Below are positions 5,502-40,254 of a stretch of 64,000 nt of DNA, in pieces; position 1 is the first letter of the stretch; every line of letters begins with the position of its first letter. The notes under the pieces are model-generated. The model was not told the origin of the DNA. It did not search any database and was given only the letters and a program-made list of their open reading frames with translations. Made by a program: the position numbers and the translations under genes. The stretch lies in the sequence record PZ445134.1. The stretch is one strand, 5' to 3'. The stretch comes from a phage.

Positions 5502-5711
5502 TTATCTCATTAAATTAAAATAAAAACGTCCATCCTCTTCAATACAGAACTCATACTCAACCGGAGTCCCATTTATCGAAAATGACACGTCATGTGGGTT
5601 CAAAGGGTCGATGTCAAAATTAATTTTAAATTCACGACCCAACAGTTTTACCAAATAAGGGATTGCTTCGTCAAAAGGTTCTTCTAAGTAGTTAGAGATG
5701 TCAATTGTCAT
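5502..5711 (-). CDS. hypothetical protein
   Basis: track ORF 5502..5795 trimmed to Met at 5711 to avoid 95 nt overlap with gene 55. Confidence 0.4.
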
Positions 5712-6258
5712 CCTCATATAAAAAATCCAAACTAGGCGAATCGCTAACAACTTCCTTCTTTTCAGCCCCAGGAGCTTTATAAGCGGATTCTTCATAATGC
5801 GTCATTTTATCGTAGATGTCTTGAATAAACGTTTCATCTACCAACGCTACCATATCATCGTCATGACTGTCGTAGACGTTATGAACGAAGTAACTATATT
5901 TCTTTGCAACTTCCTTACGTTCTTTTTTGATACGTTGGACAAAAGCATTAAAACAAGCTCGAGTTATGTATGCATGTGGGTTATTGTACTTAGTTTCGTC
6001 GAAATTATGAAGACCCTTAATAGAGGCTTCAATCCCATCTGCAATCATCTCCTGCTTCCAAGACTGGGTATATCCTGAAAAGTTGAAACGTTTGGACAGG
6101 CCTTCGGCGATAAGCATAATTGCTAAACCGATGGTATCATTCTGACGAATAATTTTGTTTGGGTCTTTATTATTTAAGAGCTCCTTTTTCCACTCGATTA
6201 TAGCGGCGAGAAGCTCTTTATTATTCACATAGTTATTTTTAGGTTTTTGTTCAGTCAT
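5701..6258 (-). CDS. 55: late transcription sigma factor gp55
   Basis: 185 aa; strong resemblance to T4 gp55 ([58 protein letters not shown]). Confidence 0.92.
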
Positions 6259-32480: not shown

Positions 32481-32721
32481 CTCGGTCCCATGATTGTTTA
32501 AAGATATCTCGTATAATAATTTCAACACATGTTTCTGTTGACGGACTTTCACTATCAGATATTTGGACCATATAATCAGAAATAGGTCGGAACATATCCA
32601 AGTCGCTTTCTAAATCTTCTTTGATTTTCTCTTCTGACGTTCCGGTATCATAGGAATACAGATAAGAATCACATGATTCTGATTTAATGTAAATTGCTAT
32701 ACTCATCTCAAATTCCTGCAT
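32470..32721 (-). CDS. hypothetical acidic protein
   Basis: 83 aa ORF. Confidence 0.45.
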   Translation of the reverse strand: MQEFEMSIAIYIKSESCDSYLYSYDTGTSEEKIKEDLESDLDMFRPISDYMVQISDSESPSTETCVEIIIRDIFKQSWDRDDE

Positions 32722-33194
32722 TCGGTAATAAAACGTTCAACTTCATTATTCTTGGCTTTTATCTTGTCTTTATGTTCTTGTAAACTACTTTTAATAAGAT
32801 TAATAATGATGGCGGCGGTACCGCCGCCAATGATGCCACCAACAACACTTATGATACTAGATGCTAATAAGATAGCAATAATATCAACAAAACCAAAAGA
32901 ACTCACCTTAGTACTGAAAAACCATATAGACGGTACAAATATAATCCATCCTGTTATCCATTGGCACTTATTGAAAAACTTTTCAAGCTCAGCTTGAGTT
33001 GTTCGTATTACTTCATCGATAGGTTGATATCCATTAATGTATCTGTTCACGATAATACCTGCTGGCTGGTCGATTTTAAATTCTTGACAAATATGTTTCA
33101 CTAAGTAGGATGGACATCCTGTCCAATCTACTGAATAGTATGAAATACCTTCATTGCCATCGACTATATTAGACCAATATGTTTTGTTAATCAT
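32703..33194 (-). CDS. membrane protein
   Basis: 163 aa with hydrophobic helices and C-terminal coiled segment. Confidence 0.45.
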   Translation of the reverse strand: MINKTYWSNIVDGNEGISYYSVDWTGCPSYLVKHICQEFKIDQPAGIIVNRYINGYQPIDEVIRTTQAELEKFFNKCQWITGWIIFVPSIWFFSTKVSSFGFVDIIAILLASSIISVVGGIIGGGTAAIIINLIKSSLQEHKDKIKAKNNEVERFITECRNLR

Positions 33195-33880
33195 TACCAG
33201 CCTTCCATAGGGAATTCCAGATAAACTTGAGCATTGACACGAATTTCATTGGTAATCTTTTTAACTCGGTCTGTATTACGAGATACACGTCCGAACCAAC
33301 GCCATCCATTACTAATTGCACGAGAACCAGTGTGCCATGTTTGCCAATCAAACTGAAGAAGAGTACGATCTGGAGCTTCCCATTTCTCTAGTTCACCTTT
33401 TTCGATTTTTTCGAGGACTTCTTTGTGCCACTGGCGATAGATAAGTTCGCCATCAGGAATCTGACTGAACTCTGCAGTTCCTGTTGCAAAATGAGTAGGA
33501 CACACATCAGCGTTAACAAGACCAAGAATATGTTCAGAATGGTAACGAGGGTTGTCATAATCAGGTTGTCCTGCAGTAATAAAGTGTTGACCGGCCGGAA
33601 TATCAGGGCGTGGAACATCATCATGGTGATACCCAGGAATAGCAGGATACCAACCGGGCATCAGCATGTGAACTCGTGAATCAAATACTACATCCGAGTC
33701 TTTCCAATCGTCAGGAAGATTTTGGATAAAGCTACGAGTAATTGGGCCACCATTATCAAAAGCAAAATTCAAATCGCAGTTAAAGAACATAGGCTCGTTT
33801 TTAATCTGGTCATTTTTAATCGCATGAGCAAAACCACCTACTGCACGAGCTTGACTATTAAACACTTTAGAACTATTCAT
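33194..33880 (-). CDS. hypothetical protein
   Basis: 228 aa; His/Asp-rich stretch; no motif recognised. Confidence 0.5.
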   Translation of the reverse strand: MNSSKVFNSQARAVGGFAHAIKNDQIKNEPMFFNCDLNFAFDNGGPITRSFIQNLPDDWKDSDVVFDSRVHMLMPGWYPAIPGYHHDDVPRPDIPAGQHFITAGQPDYDNPRYHSEHILGLVNADVCPTHFATGTAEFSQIPDGELIYRQWHKEVLEKIEKGELEKWEAPDRTLLQFDWQTWHTGSRAISNGWRWFGRVSRNTDRVKKITNEIRVNAQVYLEFPMEGW

Positions 33881-33881
33881 A

Positions 33882-34187
33882 TTATTTTCCTCGACATTCT
33901 TTAATGAAATTTTCTAGATTGGTAGATTCAATAGCTTTTTTACGAGCTTCTGCGTGTTCTTCTTCAGACAATTTACGTTTATAATTGACCCAGACATTAT
34001 GGTCGAAACTAGTCGTGGCATATAATAACAATGCTCCGACGAATAATAAAAACGGTGATAAGAATACAAAACCAGGAACACCATCCATATCGTAAGCCTT
34101 TTGTAATACTGCAACAGAAAGGGCTGCGTAAAAAAGCGATGCAAATATTGTTAAAAGACCAATTCGGTTGGTTTCGCCTAATTTCAT
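33882..34187 (-). CDS. membrane protein
   Basis: 101 aa; two hydrophobic helices; SD GAGGAG. Confidence 0.45.
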   Translation of the reverse strand: MKLGETNRIGLLTIFASLFYAALSVAVLQKAYDMDGVPGFVFLSPFLLFVGALLLYATTSFDHNVWVNYKRKLSEEEHAEARKKAIESTNLENFIKECRGK

Positions 34188-34199
34188 AATATTCTCCTC

Positions 34200-34247
34200 A
34201 TGTTTTAATAGGACTACTATAACATAGTCCTATCATGTTGTAAACAG
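34200..34247 (-). promoter_or_regulatory. early promoter with dyad symmetry (PeSL-like)
   Basis: minus strand GTTTAC, 17-18 bp, TATAGT; arms ATAGGACTA/TAGTCCTAT. Confidence 0.55.
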
Positions 34248-34257
34248 TTTTGTGAAG

Positions 34258-35214
34258 TTATTTGAAAGGTTTTACCATATGGAAATTTTGTTTGAAACGT
34301 TTGACGTAATCATCATGTCCTAAGCTTTGGTACATACTTACTACTTTGCTGTAGTTTTCCCAGGCATACTCACGGAACCAACCAGAAGTGATGCTTGTGC
34401 AGACTTTTTCTAATGCCATCATGAAACTGGCTTCAGGGTTAATTTTAAAGTCATTAGGAATCTGAGAACGTTCTAATGCTAGTACACATGATTCTTCATA
34501 TACACCGGCCAATTTGACCATTTCTGGTAATGATTCGAACTTCTCACGTGAGGTCATGACTTCAGAACCGTCTTTCATATAAAATGTATACGCTGGACGG
34601 TCTGTTAGTGCAATGGCTTCATGAATAGTATCATGGTCATACGTATAGATGTCATCTTTAAAGAACGCACTTTTAGAAGTGTCAAGAACTGGGTGAGCAT
34701 AGTTCAAGGTTTCTTTCTGGCGTTTCAGCATAATTTCAGTAAGTTCATCGTTCAGTGTAACACCTTTACCACGAAGATACTGAATATGGTTCATAGTCTT
34801 TAAAAAGAATGGATTATTTTTCTTGAAACGATGAGACATCTTAATTGCAAGACATATCTCAGGAGTTGCCCAGTAAAACCCGTTCAAACGGTCTTTAGAC
34901 AAATTTTTCTTGGCGTATTTTAAAAGGTCATAAGAAGACGTGAAATCTTCAGGAGTGAGTTCACCGACTAATTCACGGACATTAGTGATTGCCGGAACAA
35001 TATATGCTTCAAAATGAGTTTCGCGTCCATTATGGAAGCATTTGAAAACTTGGACACCAGGGTTATCTTGATGAACATATACGCCCATCATTTGATTTTT
35101 GAATGTATTCCAAGAACCTTGGTCTGCAATAAAGTCCCAGTCACTATTTTTGATAGCGTTAGAATCAATAAGACCATGATAGTGAAGTGCACGAGAACCA
35201 ATAACTAACATCAT
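34258..35214 (-). CDS. hypothetical protein (possible nucleotidyltransferase-like N-terminus)
   Basis: 318 aa; N-terminal IGSRALHYHG...SDWDF loosely resembles a GS...D.D signature; weak. Confidence 0.45.
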   Translation of the reverse strand: MMLVIGSRALHYHGLIDSNAIKNSDWDFIADQGSWNTFKNQMMGVYVHQDNPGVQVFKCFHNGRETHFEAYIVPAITNVRELVGELTPEDFTSSYDLLKYAKKNLSKDRLNGFYWATPEICLAIKMSHRFKKNNPFFLKTMNHIQYLRGKGVTLNDELTEIMLKRQKETLNYAHPVLDTSKSAFFKDDIYTYDHDTIHEAIALTDRPAYTFYMKDGSEVMTSREKFESLPEMVKLAGVYEESCVLALERSQIPNDFKINPEASFMMALEKVCTSITSGWFREYAWENYSKVVSMYQSLGHDDYVKRFKQNFHMVKPFK

Positions 35215-35242: not shown

Positions 35243-35494
35243 TTAAATTTCACGACATGCGATATCATATTCATCCCAGAGGTCATCGTGTGAAGCCTCT
35301 ACCAATGGAACGATTGTACCATTTATGTCTTCATTATAAGGGCAAATTGTACAGTGTGCATCTTCGAATCGAATGCCTTTATGTTCAGATTTTTTATAAC
35401 GCATATCGAATATCTTTGCAAACTTTTCACGAGTAATGGTTTTAGCAACCACTTCGGTTCCAATACTTTCGTAATAAATCATTGTGGGCTCCAT
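35243..35494 (-). CDS. hypothetical protein
   Basis: 83 aa ORF. Confidence 0.45.
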   Translation of the reverse strand: MEPTMIYYESIGTEVVAKTITREKFAKIFDMRYKKSEHKGIRFEDAHCTICPYNEDINGTIVPLVEASHDDLWDEYDIACREI

Positions 35495-35504
35495 TTAATT
35501 TGAT

Positions 35505-35542
35505 AGGACTACTATAACATAGCCCTATCTTGTTGTAAACTG
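35505..35542 (-). promoter_or_regulatory. early promoter with dyad symmetry (PeSL-like)
   Basis: minus strand GTTTAC; arms TAGGACTA/TAGCCCTA around -10. Confidence 0.5.
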
Positions 35543-35544
35543 TT

Positions 35545-35742
35545 TTAGCAAGAATAACTAGATGATACCCAGCCTTGAACAGTAATACTATTATTTGATA
35601 CCGAGATTGCATTCTGGAGATTCAGACCTGCGTTATCTTCAATCCATAATGTAACTTCTTCGCGTTCTTCTGTTGCAATTTGGAACAGGTTTTCTAGGGC
35701 AGCTACTGCCGTACGTACAGCACAATCTAATTCACGAGACAT
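35545..35742 (-). CDS. small protein, C-terminal GW(V/I)(S/A)SSxxC family member
   Basis: 65 aa ending ...VQGWVSSSYSC. Confidence 0.45.
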   Translation of the reverse strand: MSRELDCAVRTAVAALENLFQIATEEREEVTLWIEDNAGLNLQNAISVSNNSITVQGWVSSSYSC

Positions 35743-35751
35743 ATGATTTCC

Positions 35752-36024
35752 TTAGCAAGTGTGAGAAGATGCAATCCAACCACCGGTTTCGAGGCTCAGG
35801 TTGTAGTCGTATTGGTAAACGTCAGCCCATTCAGCATAGCCGTTTTTTGTACAACGTTCAAGATCGGCTTTAAGCTGTCCTGGTGAATGATAAGTTCCAC
35901 CCATACCATAAGCTGGATACAAGTCGAATGATGTGTTTTGTTTATCAGCAATTTCTTTGGCAGCCTCAATAGCTGCATAGATTTTTGCTACGGCTTCAGC
36001 CAGTTCGGTTTGTTCTTTAGACAT
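35752..36024 (-). CDS. small protein, C-terminal GW(V/I)(S/A)SSxxC family member
   Basis: 90 aa ending ...TGGWIASSHTC; shares GGTY and IAD motifs with 36034..36339. Confidence 0.5.
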   Translation of the reverse strand: MSKEQTELAEAVAKIYAAIEAAKEIADKQNTSFDLYPAYGMGGTYHSPGQLKADLERCTKNGYAEWADVYQYDYNLSLETGGWIASSHTC

Positions 36025-36033
36025 AATGATTCC

Positions 36034-36339
36034 TTAGCACAACGCAGAAGACGAAACCCAAGCACCTTCAGTAATAACGTAACCATTACCTTCACGCTTA
36101 ACATCGCCACCATTATTTTCAATTTCATCTTTCATCCACTGGGATACGATTTCACCCTTAGGATAATAAGTACGACCGCTACCATAATCACCTACAGAAA
36201 ATGATACGGCGTATTGGTCTGCGATCTTTGTTGCTTCTTCTTCGATACGTTCAGCTTGATTCAGAAGTTTATAAATTGCATCTGAAGCGGATTTGGCATC
36301 ATTAAACTCTGGTACTTTAATTTCAATAATCTTACTCAT
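36034..36339 (-). CDS. small protein, C-terminal GW(V/I)(S/A)SSxxC family member
   Basis: 101 aa ending ...EGAWVSSSALC. Confidence 0.5.
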   Translation of the reverse strand: MSKIIEIKVPEFNDAKSASDAIYKLLNQAERIEEEATKIADQYAVSFSVGDYGSGRTYYPKGEIVSQWMKDEIENNGGDVKREGNGYVITEGAWVSSSALC

Positions 36340-36695
36340 TTTCTACATTCCTTAATAAAGTTTTCTATTGTTTCATTTTCACGTCTAGCTAGGAGTTCAT
36401 TATAACTAATCATTTGAGAAGCGTAAACCTTTTTATTTTTCTTGTTATGGCTTATAAAATCGTAGTAAAAATAGACTACAGTACAAAATGACGCGATGGA
36501 TGCAAAGGCTTGGGTATACCGTAAGTCCTGCCATTGGTCTGTGAATCCACCAGTGTTCCCTATAAATCCTAATACAACGCCGTCAATAAGAAATCCAACT
36601 AATCCAAAGGCAAATCCCATGCTAATACTCATAATAAAAATTAGAATGTTCTCGCCAAGAGAAGGCCATACGGTTAAGAGTTGAGGCTTTTGCAT
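36336..36695 (-). CDS. membrane protein
   Basis: 119 aa with 2-3 hydrophobic helices. Confidence 0.45.
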   Translation of the reverse strand: MQKPQLLTVWPSLGENILIFIMSISMGFAFGLVGFLIDGVVLGFIGNTGGFTDQWQDLRYTQAFASIASFCTVVYFYYDFISHNKKNKKVYASQMISYNELLARRENETIENFIKECRK

Positions 36696-37099
36696 CTTAT
36701 TTCCTTAACGAATTCCATAGCTTCTTCATATTCATACTTTTTAACAGCTTCATCATACTGAGCTTGGGCTTTTGCGCACTGATCTTTCCATTCTCTTAAT
36801 CGGGCTCTGTGATGACGGCCTTGGTACCAATATCCTACCCAATTAATAGGCATTAATAAAAACGGTACAATAAGTGGTGCGACGAACATTAATGAAAATG
36901 CTGCATCAGACGATATAACTTCACTAGAATCTAAAACAGCTCCTATAATCATAAAGATTAAAAATGCTAAAGCTAAAATAGGGCCAAATAGTACTTCATT
37001 TGGGATTAATTTACGCTTGTATTCATACGCCCAGGGCTTAATTGGCATGTATAGGGTTGGCTTTGACATATTCTCTACATTCCATAATAAATTGCTCAA
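36674..37099 (-). CDS. membrane protein
   Basis: 141 aa with hydrophobic helices. Confidence 0.45.
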   Translation of the reverse strand: MSNLLWNVENMSKPTLYMPIKPWAYEYKRKLIPNEVLFGPILALAFLIFMIIGAVLDSSEVISSDAAFSLMFVAPLIVPFLLMPINWVGYWYQGRHHRARLREWKDQCAKAQAQYDEAVKKYEYEEAMEFVKEIRCKSLNS

Positions 37100-37655
37100 G
37101 GATTAAATTGTTAGTGAAATTAGGACTAACAACCATGGTTTCATAAAGCGCATCAATAGCACTTAAAGCATCAACTCTTTTAAGCAAAGGCTTACCTTCA
37201 TACATAGTTTCAGAATCGACGATTAACGTAAAGTAATATTTTTTATTATTGACCAGAACTTCTGTATCAATATAAAACATGTTAGATCTTAAAAGCTTGT
37301 CTCTAAAACCATAATAATCTTCAGAGCGTTCGCTGATATATTCCCATTCAGTGTTTAAACAACAAACAGACCATGTAGGAGCAACGAAATCAGTGAATCT
37401 AATATCATGGTCTGCAACTAGTTTAGCAATAGCTCCGATATCATGAATCATAATACCTGGGGCCAATAAAGATTTTCGGTTATTTGCATATTCAGTTGTC
37501 TCATAAGAAGACGACCAGTACCATTTACGTCCAGTTGCAACATATCGTAATGAATCAACTAAAGACGTAGGTGGATTTACCTTATTTCGGAACTCTTCGA
37601 ACATTGAGTCAATATCATTATTTTGGTTTCGCATGTTAACTCCTTTATTATCCAA
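37038..37655 (-). CDS. hypothetical protein
   Basis: 205 aa ORF; start uncertain. Confidence 0.45.
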   Translation of the reverse strand: MDNKGVNMRNQNNDIDSMFEEFRNKVNPPTSLVDSLRYVATGRKWYWSSSYETTEYANNRKSLLAPGIMIHDIGAIAKLVADHDIRFTDFVAPTWSVCCLNTEWEYISERSEDYYGFRDKLLRSNMFYIDTEVLVNNKKYYFTLIVDSETMYEGKPLLKRVDALSAIDALYETMVVSPNFTNNLILEQFIMECREYVKANPIHAN

Positions 37656-40097: not shown

Positions 40098-40172
40098 TGG
40101 TATCCCGCCCTGGGATCGAACCAGGACCGCAAACTTAGAAGGATCGTATGCTATCCATTACACCAGCGGGAT
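40098..40172 (-). tRNA. tRNA-Arg (anticodon TCT)
   Basis: hand-folded cloverleaf: acceptor ATCCCGC/GCGGGAT, D-loop AATGGATA, anticodon loop CTTCTAA, T-arm CCTGG-TTCGATC-CCAGG, encoded CCA. Confidence 0.7.
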
Positions 40173-40177
40173 GTAGT

Positions 40178-40254
40178 TGGTGACCCCGACCAGATTTGAA
40201 CTGGTAACCTTTCCCTTATGAGGGGACTGCTGCTAACCATTGAGCTACAGGGCC
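40178..40254 (-). tRNA. tRNA with anticodon CAT (Met or Ile2-type), atypical D-arm
   Basis: acceptor GGCCCTG/CGGGGTC with two G-U pairs, anticodon loop CTCATAA, T-arm ACCAG-TTCAAAT-CTGGT, encoded CCA; D-stem pairs poorly. Confidence 0.5.

What the first reader, a model, noticed from the sequence alone, without database searches (positions are those of the whole stretch)
35545..36339. Three tandem small paralogs ending in GW(V/I)(S/A)SSxxC
ORFs 36034..36339, 35752..36024 and 35545..35742 end in ...EGAWVSSSALC, ...GGWIASSHTC and ...QGWVSSSYSC. The first two also share internal motifs (IADQ/IADK, GxG(R/G)TY, PKGE/PGQ) and similar upstream DNA (ttccttagca before the start). A conserved C-terminal Cys four residues from the end after a Ser-rich stretch could be a processing, anchoring or modification signal. 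I do not recognise this family.
Basis: seen in the sequence. Interest (0 to 1): 0.55.

Follow-up and report, generated by a model that had tools for sequence, protein, structure and literature searches.

The report
Cys-tailed phage proteins beside a nucleotidyltransferase
The three small genes are real members of a widespread but undescribed phage protein family that always ends in Trp-x-x-Ser-Ser-(x-x)-Cys and almost always sits just upstream of a MenT/ANT-like nucleotidyltransferase, so the tail is probably how these proteins engage that enzyme.

Summary
Three tandem minus-strand ORFs (101, 90 and 65 aa) in an RB69-like phage end in GAWVSSSALC, GGWIASSHTC and QGWVSSSYSC. The Cys is the last residue, not four from the end.

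- **Real genes:** pN/pS is 0-0.18, and the motif is conserved at the amino-acid level, not the DNA level.
- **A large family:** 187 cluster representatives were found. In 154 members Trp(-7) and Ser(-4) are kept in 153, Ser(-3) in 147, and Cys is the final residue in 147. No Pfam, NCBIfam, PADLOC, PDB or fold match exists.
- **The new finding is a gene linkage:**
  - Arrays of 1-6 such paralogs lie directly upstream of a 318-aa gene (window 34258..35214, DUF7277+DUF7275).
  - This was so in 33 of 33 testable loci seeded from the small proteins.
  - It was so in about 74 of 79 loci seeded from the enzyme.
- **Best reading (about 0.4):** the tail is the acceptor or handle for modification by this enzyme.
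- **Main rival (about 0.3):** MenA-like regulators or adaptors of the enzyme.

No paper describing the module was found. The function has not been tested.

The parts
36034..36339 (-). Paralog p1 (101 aa), YGSGRTYYP type. Corresponds to RB69ORF139c+138c, which are split by a 1-nt insertion in the RB69 reference. Its start codon overlaps the e.3 stop (ATGA).
   Evidence: phrog_899 E = 1.3e-22. AF2 model pLDDT 89.3.
35752..36024 (-). Paralog p2 (90 aa), YGMGGTY type. Corresponds to RB69ORF137c.
   Evidence: phrog_899 E = 1.4e-18. tblastn matches in 282 phage records.
35545..35742 (-). Paralog p3 (65 aa): helix plus tail only, without the YGxGG loop. Corresponds to RB69ORF136c.
   Evidence: phrog_4882 E = 1.6e-36. 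tblastn matches in 252 phage records.
36037..36060 (-). C-terminal tail of p1: W-V-S-S-S-A-L-C.
   Evidence: family logo.
35755..35778 (-). C-terminal tail of p2: W-I-A-S-S-H-T-C.
   Evidence: family logo.
35548..35571 (-). C-terminal tail of p3: W-V-S-S-S-Y-S-C.
   Evidence: family logo.
36031..36036 (-). TAAGGA: the p1 stop codon fused to the Shine-Dalgarno sequence of p2.
   Evidence: GGAA is the commonest tetranucleotide after the stop in 166 tails.
35749..35754 (-). TAAGGA: the p2 stop codon fused to the Shine-Dalgarno sequence of p3.
34258..35214 (-). Partner gene (318 aa, RB69ORF134c). A Pol-beta-type nucleotidyltransferase of the MenT/AbiEii/ANT/Lnu structural kind, with Pfam DUF7277 at the N-terminus and DUF7275 at the C-terminus.
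35243..35494 (-). Small ORF (83 aa, RB69ORF135c, phrog_3723) between the array and the enzyme gene. It is lineage-specific filler and is not conserved across the module.
   Evidence: Other phages carry different genes at this position.
36399..36427 (-). Promoter-like site (TTTACG-17-TATAAT) about 60 nt upstream of p1.
   Evidence: This is a consensus match only; the number of such sites is not above shuffles.
35511..35539 (-). Promoter-like site (TTTACA-17-TATAGT, with TG) between p3 and ORF135c.
   Evidence: Consensus match only.

Best explanation
**What it is.** p1, p2 and p3 belong to a phage-specific family of small acidic cytoplasmic proteins. Each has an N-terminal amphipathic helix, a variable middle region that often carries a YG(M/S)GGTYYP loop, and an invariant C-terminal tail W-x-[S/A/P]-S-S-(x0-3)-Cys-COOH.

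**The module.** Arrays of 1-6 such paralogs form a two-part module with the gene immediately downstream, a catalytically intact MenT/ANT-like nucleotidyltransferase (ORF134c).

**Proposed mechanism (inferred, not shown).**
- The tail is the common handle by which all paralogs enter the enzyme's active site.
- There the enzyme covalently modifies it. The most likely chemistry is O-nucleotidylylation or O-phosphorylation of the invariant Ser-Ser pair.
- The Trp would act as the docking anchor.
- The terminal Cys thiol or carboxylate would either help to bind the metal-nucleotide or be the acceptor itself.
- The variable bodies would then carry the modification to different targets during early infection.

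**Shown:** the genes, the family, the motif, the linkage, the enzyme's fold and its catalytic residues. **Inferred:** physical contact between tail and enzyme, and the chemistry.
For: **The motif is under extreme selection.** In 154 members, W(-7) is kept in 153, S(-4) in 153 and S(-3) in 147, and Cys is the last residue in 147. Conservation is at the amino-acid level.

**The motif behaves like a portable tag.**
- Paralogs that the family HMM no longer detects still keep the tail. Examples are p3, 146-aa proteins ending DWDSSSMYC, and short tails ending W-x-P-S-S-C.
- The W-to-SS spacing is fixed, while the SS-to-C spacing is 0-3 residues.
- Some members repeat W-[D/E]-S-S-(G)-C inside the acidic linker.

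**The linkage is strong.**
- In 33 of 33 testable loci seeded from the small proteins, the enzyme gene lies 14-1400 nt downstream on the same strand (or overlaps the called tail ORFs in a few loci). The other 11 loci end less than 900 nt downstream and cannot be tested.
- In loci seeded from the enzyme, 73 of 80 have 1-5 tail ORFs upstream.
- All 5 loci found in the bacterial and archaeal genome collection, all from metagenome-assembled genomes, also have tail ORFs.

**The linkage is asymmetric.** Tails were never seen without the enzyme where this could be tested. The enzyme does occur without tails. This fits proteins that need the enzyme to function.

**The enzyme.**
- G6-S7, D25-x-D27 and E69 are invariant.
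- ANT and Lnu relatives transfer NMP to hydroxyl groups (established knowledge).
- MenT1 and MenT3 transfer phosphate onto an active-site Thr or Ser (PMC11375011). Protein Ser-OH is therefore a chemically plausible acceptor for this clade.

**Several substrates with one shared tag** would explain why an array of diverged paralogs keeps one identical tail.
Against: - There is no direct evidence of contact or of modification.
- The AF2 model of p1 places W-V-S-S in a beta-strand of the small sheet (E93-96) rather than in a floppy tail. The Ser residues may therefore be partly structural.
- The enzyme's catalytic core is equally conserved in lineages without nearby tail genes. Examples are CC31, where 8 tRNA genes sit upstream instead, the L118 lineage, and Streptomyces, Gordonia, Vibrio and roseophage homologues. 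The enzyme must therefore have another, probably ancestral, substrate. Its closest structural relatives act on tRNA 3' ends, and some distant homologues sit near Pnk, RNA ligase or tRNA genes.
- The gene order, with the small protein upstream of the NTase, is also that of MenA-MenT and AbiEi-AbiEii pairs, where the small partner is a regulator and not a substrate.
- An invariant terminal Cys is not explained by Ser modification alone.
Confidence: 0.4

Rival explanations
1. **Regulator or adaptor model (MenA-like).** The small proteins are not substrates. They bind the nucleotidyltransferase non-covalently, through the N-terminal helix, the tail, or both, with the tail perhaps plugging the active site. 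They would inhibit, time or retarget an enzyme whose real substrate is RNA, for example tRNA 3' ends.
For: - The best structural matches are the tRNA-modifying toxins MenT1, MenT3 and MenT4.
- In MenAT and AbiE systems a small upstream gene controls the NTase, and MenA1 acts through a single extended alpha-helix.
- All family members share a long N-terminal helix.
- The invariant S7 of the G-S motif corresponds by position in the G[S/T] motif to the MenT1 T39 / MenT3 S78 phosphoacceptor. This is my inference.
- The enzyme persists with an intact core without tail genes.
- Some homologues sit near tRNA, Pnk or RNA ligase genes.
Against: - The helix is variable and the tail is invariant. A regulator would be expected to conserve its binding helix.
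- Arrays of up to 6 diverged paralogs are not expected for an antitoxin.
- The enzyme occurs alone in some phages, so it does not need neutralising.
- The family is essentially absent from bacterial chromosomes. Only 5 loci, all from metagenome-assembled genomes, were found in a collection of 185,579 species genomes. It is therefore not a classical toxin-antitoxin or defence module.
- The small proteins have no sequence or fold similarity to any solved antitoxin.
Confidence: 0.3
2. **Independent-tail model.** The tail works on something other than the co-encoded enzyme. Possibilities include docking to a conserved host protein, a C-terminal-peptide-binding domain or protease, thiol or metal chemistry through the terminal Cys, or oligomer disulfides. 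In this model the synteny with the enzyme reflects a shared pathway or a co-inherited cassette.
For: - Single invariant cysteines are usually chemically active.
- The tail is conserved across phages of very different hosts (Enterobacteria, Aeromonas, Acinetobacter, Xanthomonas and environmental samples). This would fit a universal bacterial target.
- Both partners have the same early-gene, accessory-region context.
Against: - Linkage of 33/33 and about 74/79 across otherwise unrelated genomic backgrounds (30-390 kb contigs) is hard to explain without a direct functional tie.
- No candidate host partner was identified.
- 78 of 154 members have only one Cys, so an intramolecular metal site or disulfide is excluded for them.
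Confidence: 0.2
3. **RiPP-like precursor model.** The roughly 80-aa body is a leader. The frequent G-G before the Trp is a cleavage site. The octapeptide W-x-S-S-S-x-x-C is a core that is dehydrated or cyclised. A Ser(-3)-x-x-Cys-COOH arrangement is the spacing used for AviCys or lanthionine rings.
For: - Gly is common at -9 (97/154) and at -8 (80/154).
- S(-3)-x-x-C-COOH has the same spacing as the AviCys-forming end of epidermin or cypemycin (my own knowledge).
- Multiple precursor paralogs next to one enzyme gene is a typical RiPP layout.
Against: - No lanthipeptide dehydratase, cyclase, LanD-type decarboxylase, radical-SAM enzyme or peptidase family was detected among the window neighbours that were scanned.
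- The only universally linked gene is an NTase.
- The pattern is the opposite of RiPPs. Here the 'core' is invariant and the 'leader' is variable.
- Short tails ending W-x-P-S-S-C lack the S-x-x-C spacing.
- 7 of 154 members have a residue after the Cys.
- AF2 folds the tail into the domain.
Confidence: 0.05

Closest known systems
MenAT / AbiE toxin-antitoxin modules (DUF1814 nucleotidyltransferase with a small upstream partner)
   Same: - The G-S, D-x-D and E catalytic motifs are present.
- The small partner gene or genes lie directly upstream on the same strand.
- The partner carries a long alpha-helix, like MenA1.
   Different: - Pfam does not place ORF134c in DUF1814. It matches only DUF7277 and DUF7275.
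- Sequence identity to the MenT structures is 8-11%.
- The module is in virulent phages and not in bacterial chromosomes.
- The partners come as arrays of 1-6 paralogs with an invariant W-x-x-S-S-(x-x)-C tail. No such tail is mentioned for the MenA antitoxins in the sections read.
- The enzyme can occur without partners.
- Toxicity and tRNA modification have not been tested.
ANT(2'')/AadB and LnuA O-nucleotidyltransferases
   Different: Their acceptors are antibiotics and not proteins. There is no sequence similarity. ORF134c has a much larger and highly conserved C-terminal domain, with invariant H128, H174, H194-D195, H198, E240-E241, R249 and C272 within its own clade.
NTase-fold enzymes that modify a protein hydroxyl: GlnD-PII, GlnE-glutamine synthetase, MntA-HepT, and the CitX/MdcG holo-ACP synthases (from my own knowledge, not tested here)
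   Same: In each case an enzyme of EC class 2.7.7 attaches a nucleotide-derived group to a Tyr or Ser of a small partner protein encoded nearby.
   Different: None of these appeared among the listed matches of the fold search. Their acceptor sites are internal and not a C-terminal tag. No multi-paralog arrays are known for them.
RlaP, the RNA-ligase-associated Pol-beta NTase of phages
   Same: It is a phage-encoded Pol-beta-type NTase predicted to restore RNA ends (PMC7824862). Some distant ORF134c homologues sit near Pnk or RNA ligase genes.
   Different: ORF134c does not match the Pfam RlaP model and matches only DUF7277/DUF7275. In the window it is not next to an RNA ligase.
C-terminal S-x-x-C ends of lanthipeptide and linaridin precursors (AviCys)
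   Same: A terminal Cys with a Ser three residues upstream, and several precursor-like paralogs next to an enzyme gene.
   Different: See the RiPP rival. The required enzyme families were not detected among the window neighbours scanned. The 'core' is invariant and the body is variable. Short tails lack the spacing.

Membership tests
PHROG 899 / PHROG 4882 (phage protein clusters of unknown function) | Significant HMM match | tested here: met
   p1 E = 1.3e-22 and p2 E = 1.4e-18 to phrog_899, matching only its C-terminal positions 134-221. p3 E = 1.6e-36 to phrog_4882.
The tail-Cys small-protein family as defined here | C-terminal W-x-[S/A/P]-S-S-(x0-3)-C at the end of a protein of 52-180 aa | tested here: met
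   All three ORFs meet this. The logo from 154 members is. 186 distinct tails were found in phage loci.
The tail-Cys small-protein family as defined here | Location directly upstream of a DUF7277/DUF7275 gene on the same strand | tested here: met
   The end of p3 lies about 330 nt from the start of ORF134c in the window. The same holds in 33/33 and 73/80 loci elsewhere.
Pol-beta-type nucleotidyltransferase fold (for ORF134c) | hG[GS] motif, [DE]h[DE]h motif and a third carboxylate | tested here: met
   G6-S7, D25-W-D27 and E69 are invariant in 47 sequences. G6, S7, D25 and D27 are also invariant in distant homologues.
Pol-beta-type nucleotidyltransferase fold (for ORF134c) | Structural similarity to solved NTases | tested here: met
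   [not shown]
DUF1814 / AbiEii / MenT toxins | Match to the DUF1814 sequence model | tested here: not met
   A Pfam scan of 47 members at E <= 5 returns only DUF7275 and DUF7277.
DUF1814 / AbiEii / MenT toxins | Growth-inhibiting NTase that adds nucleotides to tRNA 3' ends and is neutralised by the upstream gene | not testable with these tools
   This needs expression and tRNA assays. It can be said that the module is almost absent from bacterial genomes.
MenA / AbiEi antitoxins (for p1-p3) | Sequence or fold similarity to a known antitoxin | tested here: not met
   [not shown]
RiPP / lanthipeptide precursors | A co-encoded dehydratase, cyclase, decarboxylase or leader peptidase | tested here: not met
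   No such Pfam family is present in the neighbours. The only conserved neighbour is the NTase.
RiPP / lanthipeptide precursors | Conserved leader with a variable core | tested here: not met
   The reverse is seen here: an invariant tail and a variable body.
T4-type internal head proteins (encoded near this region in T4) | An N-terminal capsid-targeting sequence (MKTYQEFIAE-like, from my own knowledge) | tested here: not met
   The N-termini are MSKIIEIKVPEF, MSKEQTELAEAV and MSRELDCAVRT. The family also occurs in phages unrelated to T4.
Lipoprotein / CaaX-type Cys anchoring signals | An N-terminal lipobox after a signal peptide, or a Cys four residues from the C-terminus | tested here: not met
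   There is no hydrophobic N-terminus. The Cys is the last residue in 147 of 154 members.

The most novel reading that the evidence does not exclude
Hundreds of virulent phages encode a previously unrecognised protein-tagging system. In it, a MenT/ANT-like nucleotidyltransferase attaches a nucleotide or phosphate to a universal C-terminal W-x-x-S-S-(x-x)-Cys tag. The tag is carried by a diversifying set of small effector proteins, each aimed at a different host target (takeover or counter-defence). This would be a new class of enzyme-activated phage effectors and a new kind of protein nucleotidylylation on a C-terminal peptide tag.
Probability: 0.25. Interest if true: 0.85.

Novelty: new variant of a known kind. 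Interest (0 to 1): 0.66.

Why it matters
**Scale.** The enzyme family is found in 734 deposited phage genomes across many genera and in more than 2,200 protein clusters. The tail family has at least 187 clusters at 50% identity. Everything is annotated as 'hypothetical', and I found no paper on it.

**The signal is unusual.** A near-invariant eight-residue C-terminal tag is shared by otherwise fast-evolving paralogs and is tied to one enzyme gene. Sequence-to-function signals this clean are rare.

**What it would add.** If the tag is a modification site, this would be a new type of protein nucleotidylylation and a new logic for phage effectors, in which one enzyme serves many tagged cargos. 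If the proteins are regulators, this would extend the MenT/AbiE nucleotidyltransferase control paradigm from bacterial toxins to phage-encoded enzymes that may act on tRNA. Either way it gives an immediately testable handle on part of the 'dark matter' of the hyperplastic regions of T4-like phages.

Tried and rejected
- **Chance or DNA-level repeat.** Rejected. Shuffles give 0.0 occurrences against 3 observed. Ser and Cys codons vary. pN/pS is 0-0.18.
- **A regulatory DNA element ('ttccttagca').** Rejected. It is the Cys codon, the stop codon and the Shine-Dalgarno sequence.
- **An RNA element.** No Rfam family lies in the region. Only two tRNAs are found, at 40101..40254.
- **Known protein families.**
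  - Pfam, NCBIfam and PADLOC gave nothing significant for p1-p3 or for longer family members.
  - The marginal Pfam hits to Peptidase_S78_2 and E217_Gp32 for p1 are below their cut-offs.
- **Word-indexed homologue searches.** These found only close relatives. The exhaustive profile search was needed.
- **Unavailable or failed searches.** The search for related loci with the 147-sequence alignment failed because it has no conserved 7-10 column stretch. I replaced it with a back-translated YGMGGTY DNA pattern. About 30 of its 73 hits were unrelated GC-rich contigs and were discarded. The afdb50 fold library was not available.
- **Other conserved neighbours.** The second 'conserved' ORF cluster (21 loci) is the antisense strand of the enzyme gene. 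ORF135c and the membrane-protein genes are lineage-specific.
- **Co-variation of enzyme cysteines with tails.** C272 is kept in 5 of 5 tail-linked enzymes and lost in 3 of 4 tail-less distant ones, but C243 does not track. The number of independent events is too small to count as evidence.
- **Internal head protein, lipoprotein/CaaX and RiPP readings.** See the membership tests.
Full report
**1. Where we are.**
- The 2-kb stretch around the finding is 97-98% identical to RB69-like phages (Mosigvirus), with 139 records covering at least 80% of the query.
- In the RB69 record the three ORFs are RB69ORF139c+138c, 137c and 136c. All are 'hypothetical' and lie between e.3 and e.2.
- In T4 itself e.2 and e.3 are adjacent. 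The block p1-p2-p3-ORF135c-ORF134c-ORF133c-ORF132c is therefore an accessory cassette in a hyperplastic early-gene region.

**2.
- Searches give three minus-strand ORFs: 36034..36339 (101 aa), 35752..36024 (90 aa) and 35545..35742 (65 aa). They end in GAWVSSSALC, GGWIASSHTC and QGWVSSSYSC.
- W..SS..C-stop occurs three times in the six-frame translation of the window and 0.0 times in 100 shuffles.
- Pairwise similarity is weak (E = 2e-4 to 2e-3), but the alignment is coherent.
- Two details need correcting.
  - The Cys is the last residue.
  - 'ttccttagca' is the reverse complement of tgc-TAA-GGA-a: the Cys codon, the stop and the next gene's ribosome-binding site. The start of p1 overlaps the stop of e.3 (ATGA).
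- The ORFs are under purifying selection, with pN/pS 0-0.18 against close relatives.
- No RNA family lies here.

**3. The family.**
- Word-indexed searches found only close relatives, but these already kept the tail. The Aeromonas phage CC2 homologue ends GYWMSSSDQC.
- A profile search of 1.84 billion representatives gave 187 proteins at E <= 1e-3. Nearly all are 70-120 aa, and the match runs to the very end of the protein.
- In 154 members, counting back from the Cys:
  - G(-9) is present in 97.
  - G(-8) is present in 80.
  - W(-7) is present in 153.
  - Position -6 is hydrophobic or polar.
  - Position -5 is S in 97, A in 44 and P in 10.
  - S(-4) is present in 153.
  - S(-3) is present in 147.
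  - Two variable residues follow.
  - Cys is the terminal residue in 147, and is followed by one residue in 7.
- A second conserved block is (A/E)YG(M/S)GGTYYP. It follows an N-terminal helix that ends in ..AE.IADE...
- Some members repeat W-[D/E]-S-S-(G)-C in the acidic linker.
- Across 166 distinct tails, both invariant Ser positions use AGY as well as TCN codons and Cys uses TGC and TGT. Selection therefore acts on the peptide.
- No Pfam, NCBIfam or PADLOC family matches. PHROG 899 and PHROG 4882 match but have no known function.
- The AF2 model of p1 (pLDDT 89) is a long helix (residues 15-43) packed on a small sheet, with W-V-S-S as the last strand.

**4. Tandem arrays everywhere.**
- Klebsiella phage Marfa has five to six tailed paralogs in a row. 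Their tails are ...GAWVSSSEMC, ...GGWVSSSMEC, ...RIWHPSSC, ...GFWYSSSMQNC and ...LGWQSSSLDC.
- The Xanthomonas jumbo phage XbC2 has two.
- In loci fetched with a back-translated YGMGGTY pattern, 44 loci hold 1-6 tailed ORFs. These include paralogs that the family HMM misses but that keep the tail, such as 146-aa proteins ending DWDSSSMYC.
- A short tail class, W-x-[P/S/T]-S-S-C, is common.
- With the tail removed, 165 of 186 distinct proteins still join one BLAST single-linkage cluster, and the p3 type forms a second cluster. This is one diverging superfamily whose only invariant part is the tail.

**5. The key context is a linked enzyme.**
- Clustering of all neighbouring ORFs gave one partner, the homologue of window ORF 34258..35214 (318 aa, RB69ORF134c).
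- It lies downstream on the same strand, 14-1400 nt from the array (or overlapping the called tail ORFs in a few loci), in 33 loci. The other 11 loci end less than 900 nt downstream, so the score is 33 of 33 testable.
- The reciprocal test used 80 loci seeded with the enzyme. Of these, 73 have 1-5 tailed ORFs upstream.
- Of the 7 others:
  - L128 has two tailed ORFs just outside my filter.
  - L153 has only 243 nt upstream.
  - Five truly lack them. These are CC31 and one other lineage.
- In the collection of 185,579 bacterial and archaeal species genomes, only 5 loci carry the enzyme. All come from metagenome-assembled genomes and all have tailed ORFs. The module is therefore phage-specific.

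**6. What the enzyme is.**
- Pfam sees only DUF7277 and DUF7275, and no PDB sequence matches.
- The family is large: 2,211 clusters and 734 phage records. The genera include Escherichia, Acinetobacter, Aeromonas, Pseudomonas, Vibrio, Klebsiella, Stenotrophomonas, Streptomyces and Gordonia.
- The alignment shows invariant G6-S7, D25-x-D27 and E69. These form the Pol-beta nucleotidyltransferase triad.
- It also shows a very conserved helical domain with K125, H128, H174, H194-D195, H198, E240-E241, C243, R249 and C272.
- The AF2 model (pLDDT 92.7) matches:
- MenT toxins add nucleotides to tRNA 3' ends. They are controlled by small upstream antitoxins that induce phosphorylation of an active-site Ser or Thr, and MenA1 does so through a single long helix (PMC10435456, PMC11375011).
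- ANT and Lnu enzymes nucleotidylylate hydroxyl groups of antibiotics (established knowledge).

**7. Interpretation.**
- *Shown:* a conserved two-part phage module made of tail-tagged small proteins and a catalytically intact MenT/ANT-like nucleotidyltransferase.
- *Inferred:* the tail is the element through which the small proteins meet the enzyme. I put about 0.6-0.7 on this general link.
- Within it I favour covalent modification of the tail (about 0.4), for four reasons:
  1. The invariant residues are nucleophiles (Ser, Ser, Cys) next to an aromatic anchor.
  2. The tag is portable and sometimes repeated.
  3. Many diverged bodies share one tag, as several substrates of one enzyme would.
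  4. Tails were never seen without the enzyme, while the enzyme occurs without tails.
- The main rival (about 0.3) is a MenA-like regulator or adaptor role for an enzyme that acts on RNA. It is supported by:
  - the gene order;
  - the shared N-terminal helix;
  - the fully conserved catalytic core in tail-less lineages;
  - the presence of tRNA, Pnk or RNA ligase genes near some homologues. In CC31, eight tRNA genes replace the array.
- An independent role for the tail (about 0.2) and a RiPP-like precursor role (about 0.05) are less likely, for the reasons given under the rival explanations.

**8. Comparison with what is known, and novelty.**
- The enzyme is a new, sequence-distinct branch of a known fold. 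It fails the DUF1814 sequence test, so it should not be filed as a MenT/AbiEii member, although it may work like one.
- The small proteins belong to no described family.
- Full-text searches for the RB69 gene names, the DUF and PHROG identifiers, and combinations of MenT, nucleotidyltransferase and phage terms found no description of the tail or of the module.
- The jumbo-phage survey that catalogues phage NTases describes RlaP and CCA-adding enzymes. My term searches in it found no mention of a C-terminal-Cys family.
- I therefore rate this a new variant of a known kind (an NTase with a small partner). There is a real chance, about 0.25, that it is a new protein-tagging system.

**9. Limits.**
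- No multimer prediction, no model coordinates and no experiments were available.
- The linkage statistics come from ORF calling by a simple script and from contigs that are phylogenetically non-independent.
- Absence of tail genes was tested only within about 2.5-14 kb of the enzyme gene.

Noticed in passing
window 32703..33194, 33882..34187, 36336..36695, 36674..37099, 37038..37655 (all minus strand): Five neighbouring genes (e.2, ORF133c, e.3, e.4, e.5) share a second C-terminal motif..(N/R/Q)-F-(I/V)-x-E-C-R... Examples are NFIKECRGK, NFIKECRK, RFITECRNLR, EFVKEIRCK and QFIMECREY. e.2, e.3 and e.4 are annotated as predicted membrane proteins in RB69. These genes flank the tail/NTase cassette on both sides. 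The same ending is seen in neighbours in Marfa, CC31 and PEi20.
   Followed up: partly
L001 (RB69 AY303349) 5662..5968, corresponding to window 36034..36339: The RB69 reference carries a 1-nt insertion after CAGTGG that splits p1 into ORF139c and ORF138c. It also has a Ser-to-Pro change in the tail (VSSPALC). The cause is either a lab-strain pseudogene or a sequencing error. The gene is intact in the window and in a 48-member cluster.
   Followed up: yes
L169 (Enterobacter phage CC31) 5714..8112: The NTase homologue CC31p140 is intact, but it is preceded by one small ORF and eight tRNA genes instead of a tail-protein array. No tailed ORF lies within 14 kb.
   Followed up: partly
L157 (Streptomyces phage Wakanda), L159 (DSS3_PM1), L158 (Gordonia phage Toniann): Distant, shorter homologues of the NTase (26-30% identity) have no tailed ORFs nearby. 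They sit within a few kb of polynucleotide kinase, RNA ligase or metallophosphoesterase genes, or of a tRNA cluster. This hints at an RNA-end function for the ancestral enzyme.
   Followed up: partly
window 34258..35214 (residues C243 and C272 of ORF134c): Two cysteines are invariant within the tail-linked enzyme clade (EExCVLALER and EKVCTSITSGWFRE). C272 and the SGWFRE motif are lost in three distant tail-less homologues. C243 is Tyr in the tail-linked Acinetobacter phage KARL-1.
   Followed up: partly
window 36399..36427, 35511..35539, 34216..34244 (minus strand): T4-early-type promoter-like sites (TTTAC(A/G)-17-TATA(A/G)T) lie before p1, before ORF135c and after ORF134c. No terminator-like site lies between the array and the enzyme gene. 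The overall number of such sites is not above shuffles.
   Followed up: no
window 33194..33880 (minus strand): ORF132c (228 aa), downstream of the cassette, has no Pfam match. It is part of the insertion relative to T4. It did not appear among the widely shared neighbour clusters.
   Followed up: no
window 40101..40254 (minus strand): Two tRNA genes (Met and Arg in the RB69 annotation) lie about 3.8 kb upstream of the array on the same strand.
   Followed up: no
NC_018855.1 (phage HX01), MK962756.1 (phage JK42), and the protein cluster of Klebsiella phage vB_KpnM-VAC36 (P0172): Some deposited records label genes in this block as 'major capsid protein', 'tail completion protein', 'sulfurtransferase' or 'prohead assembly scaffold protein'. 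Nothing found here supports those names, and they look like annotation artefacts.
   Followed up: no
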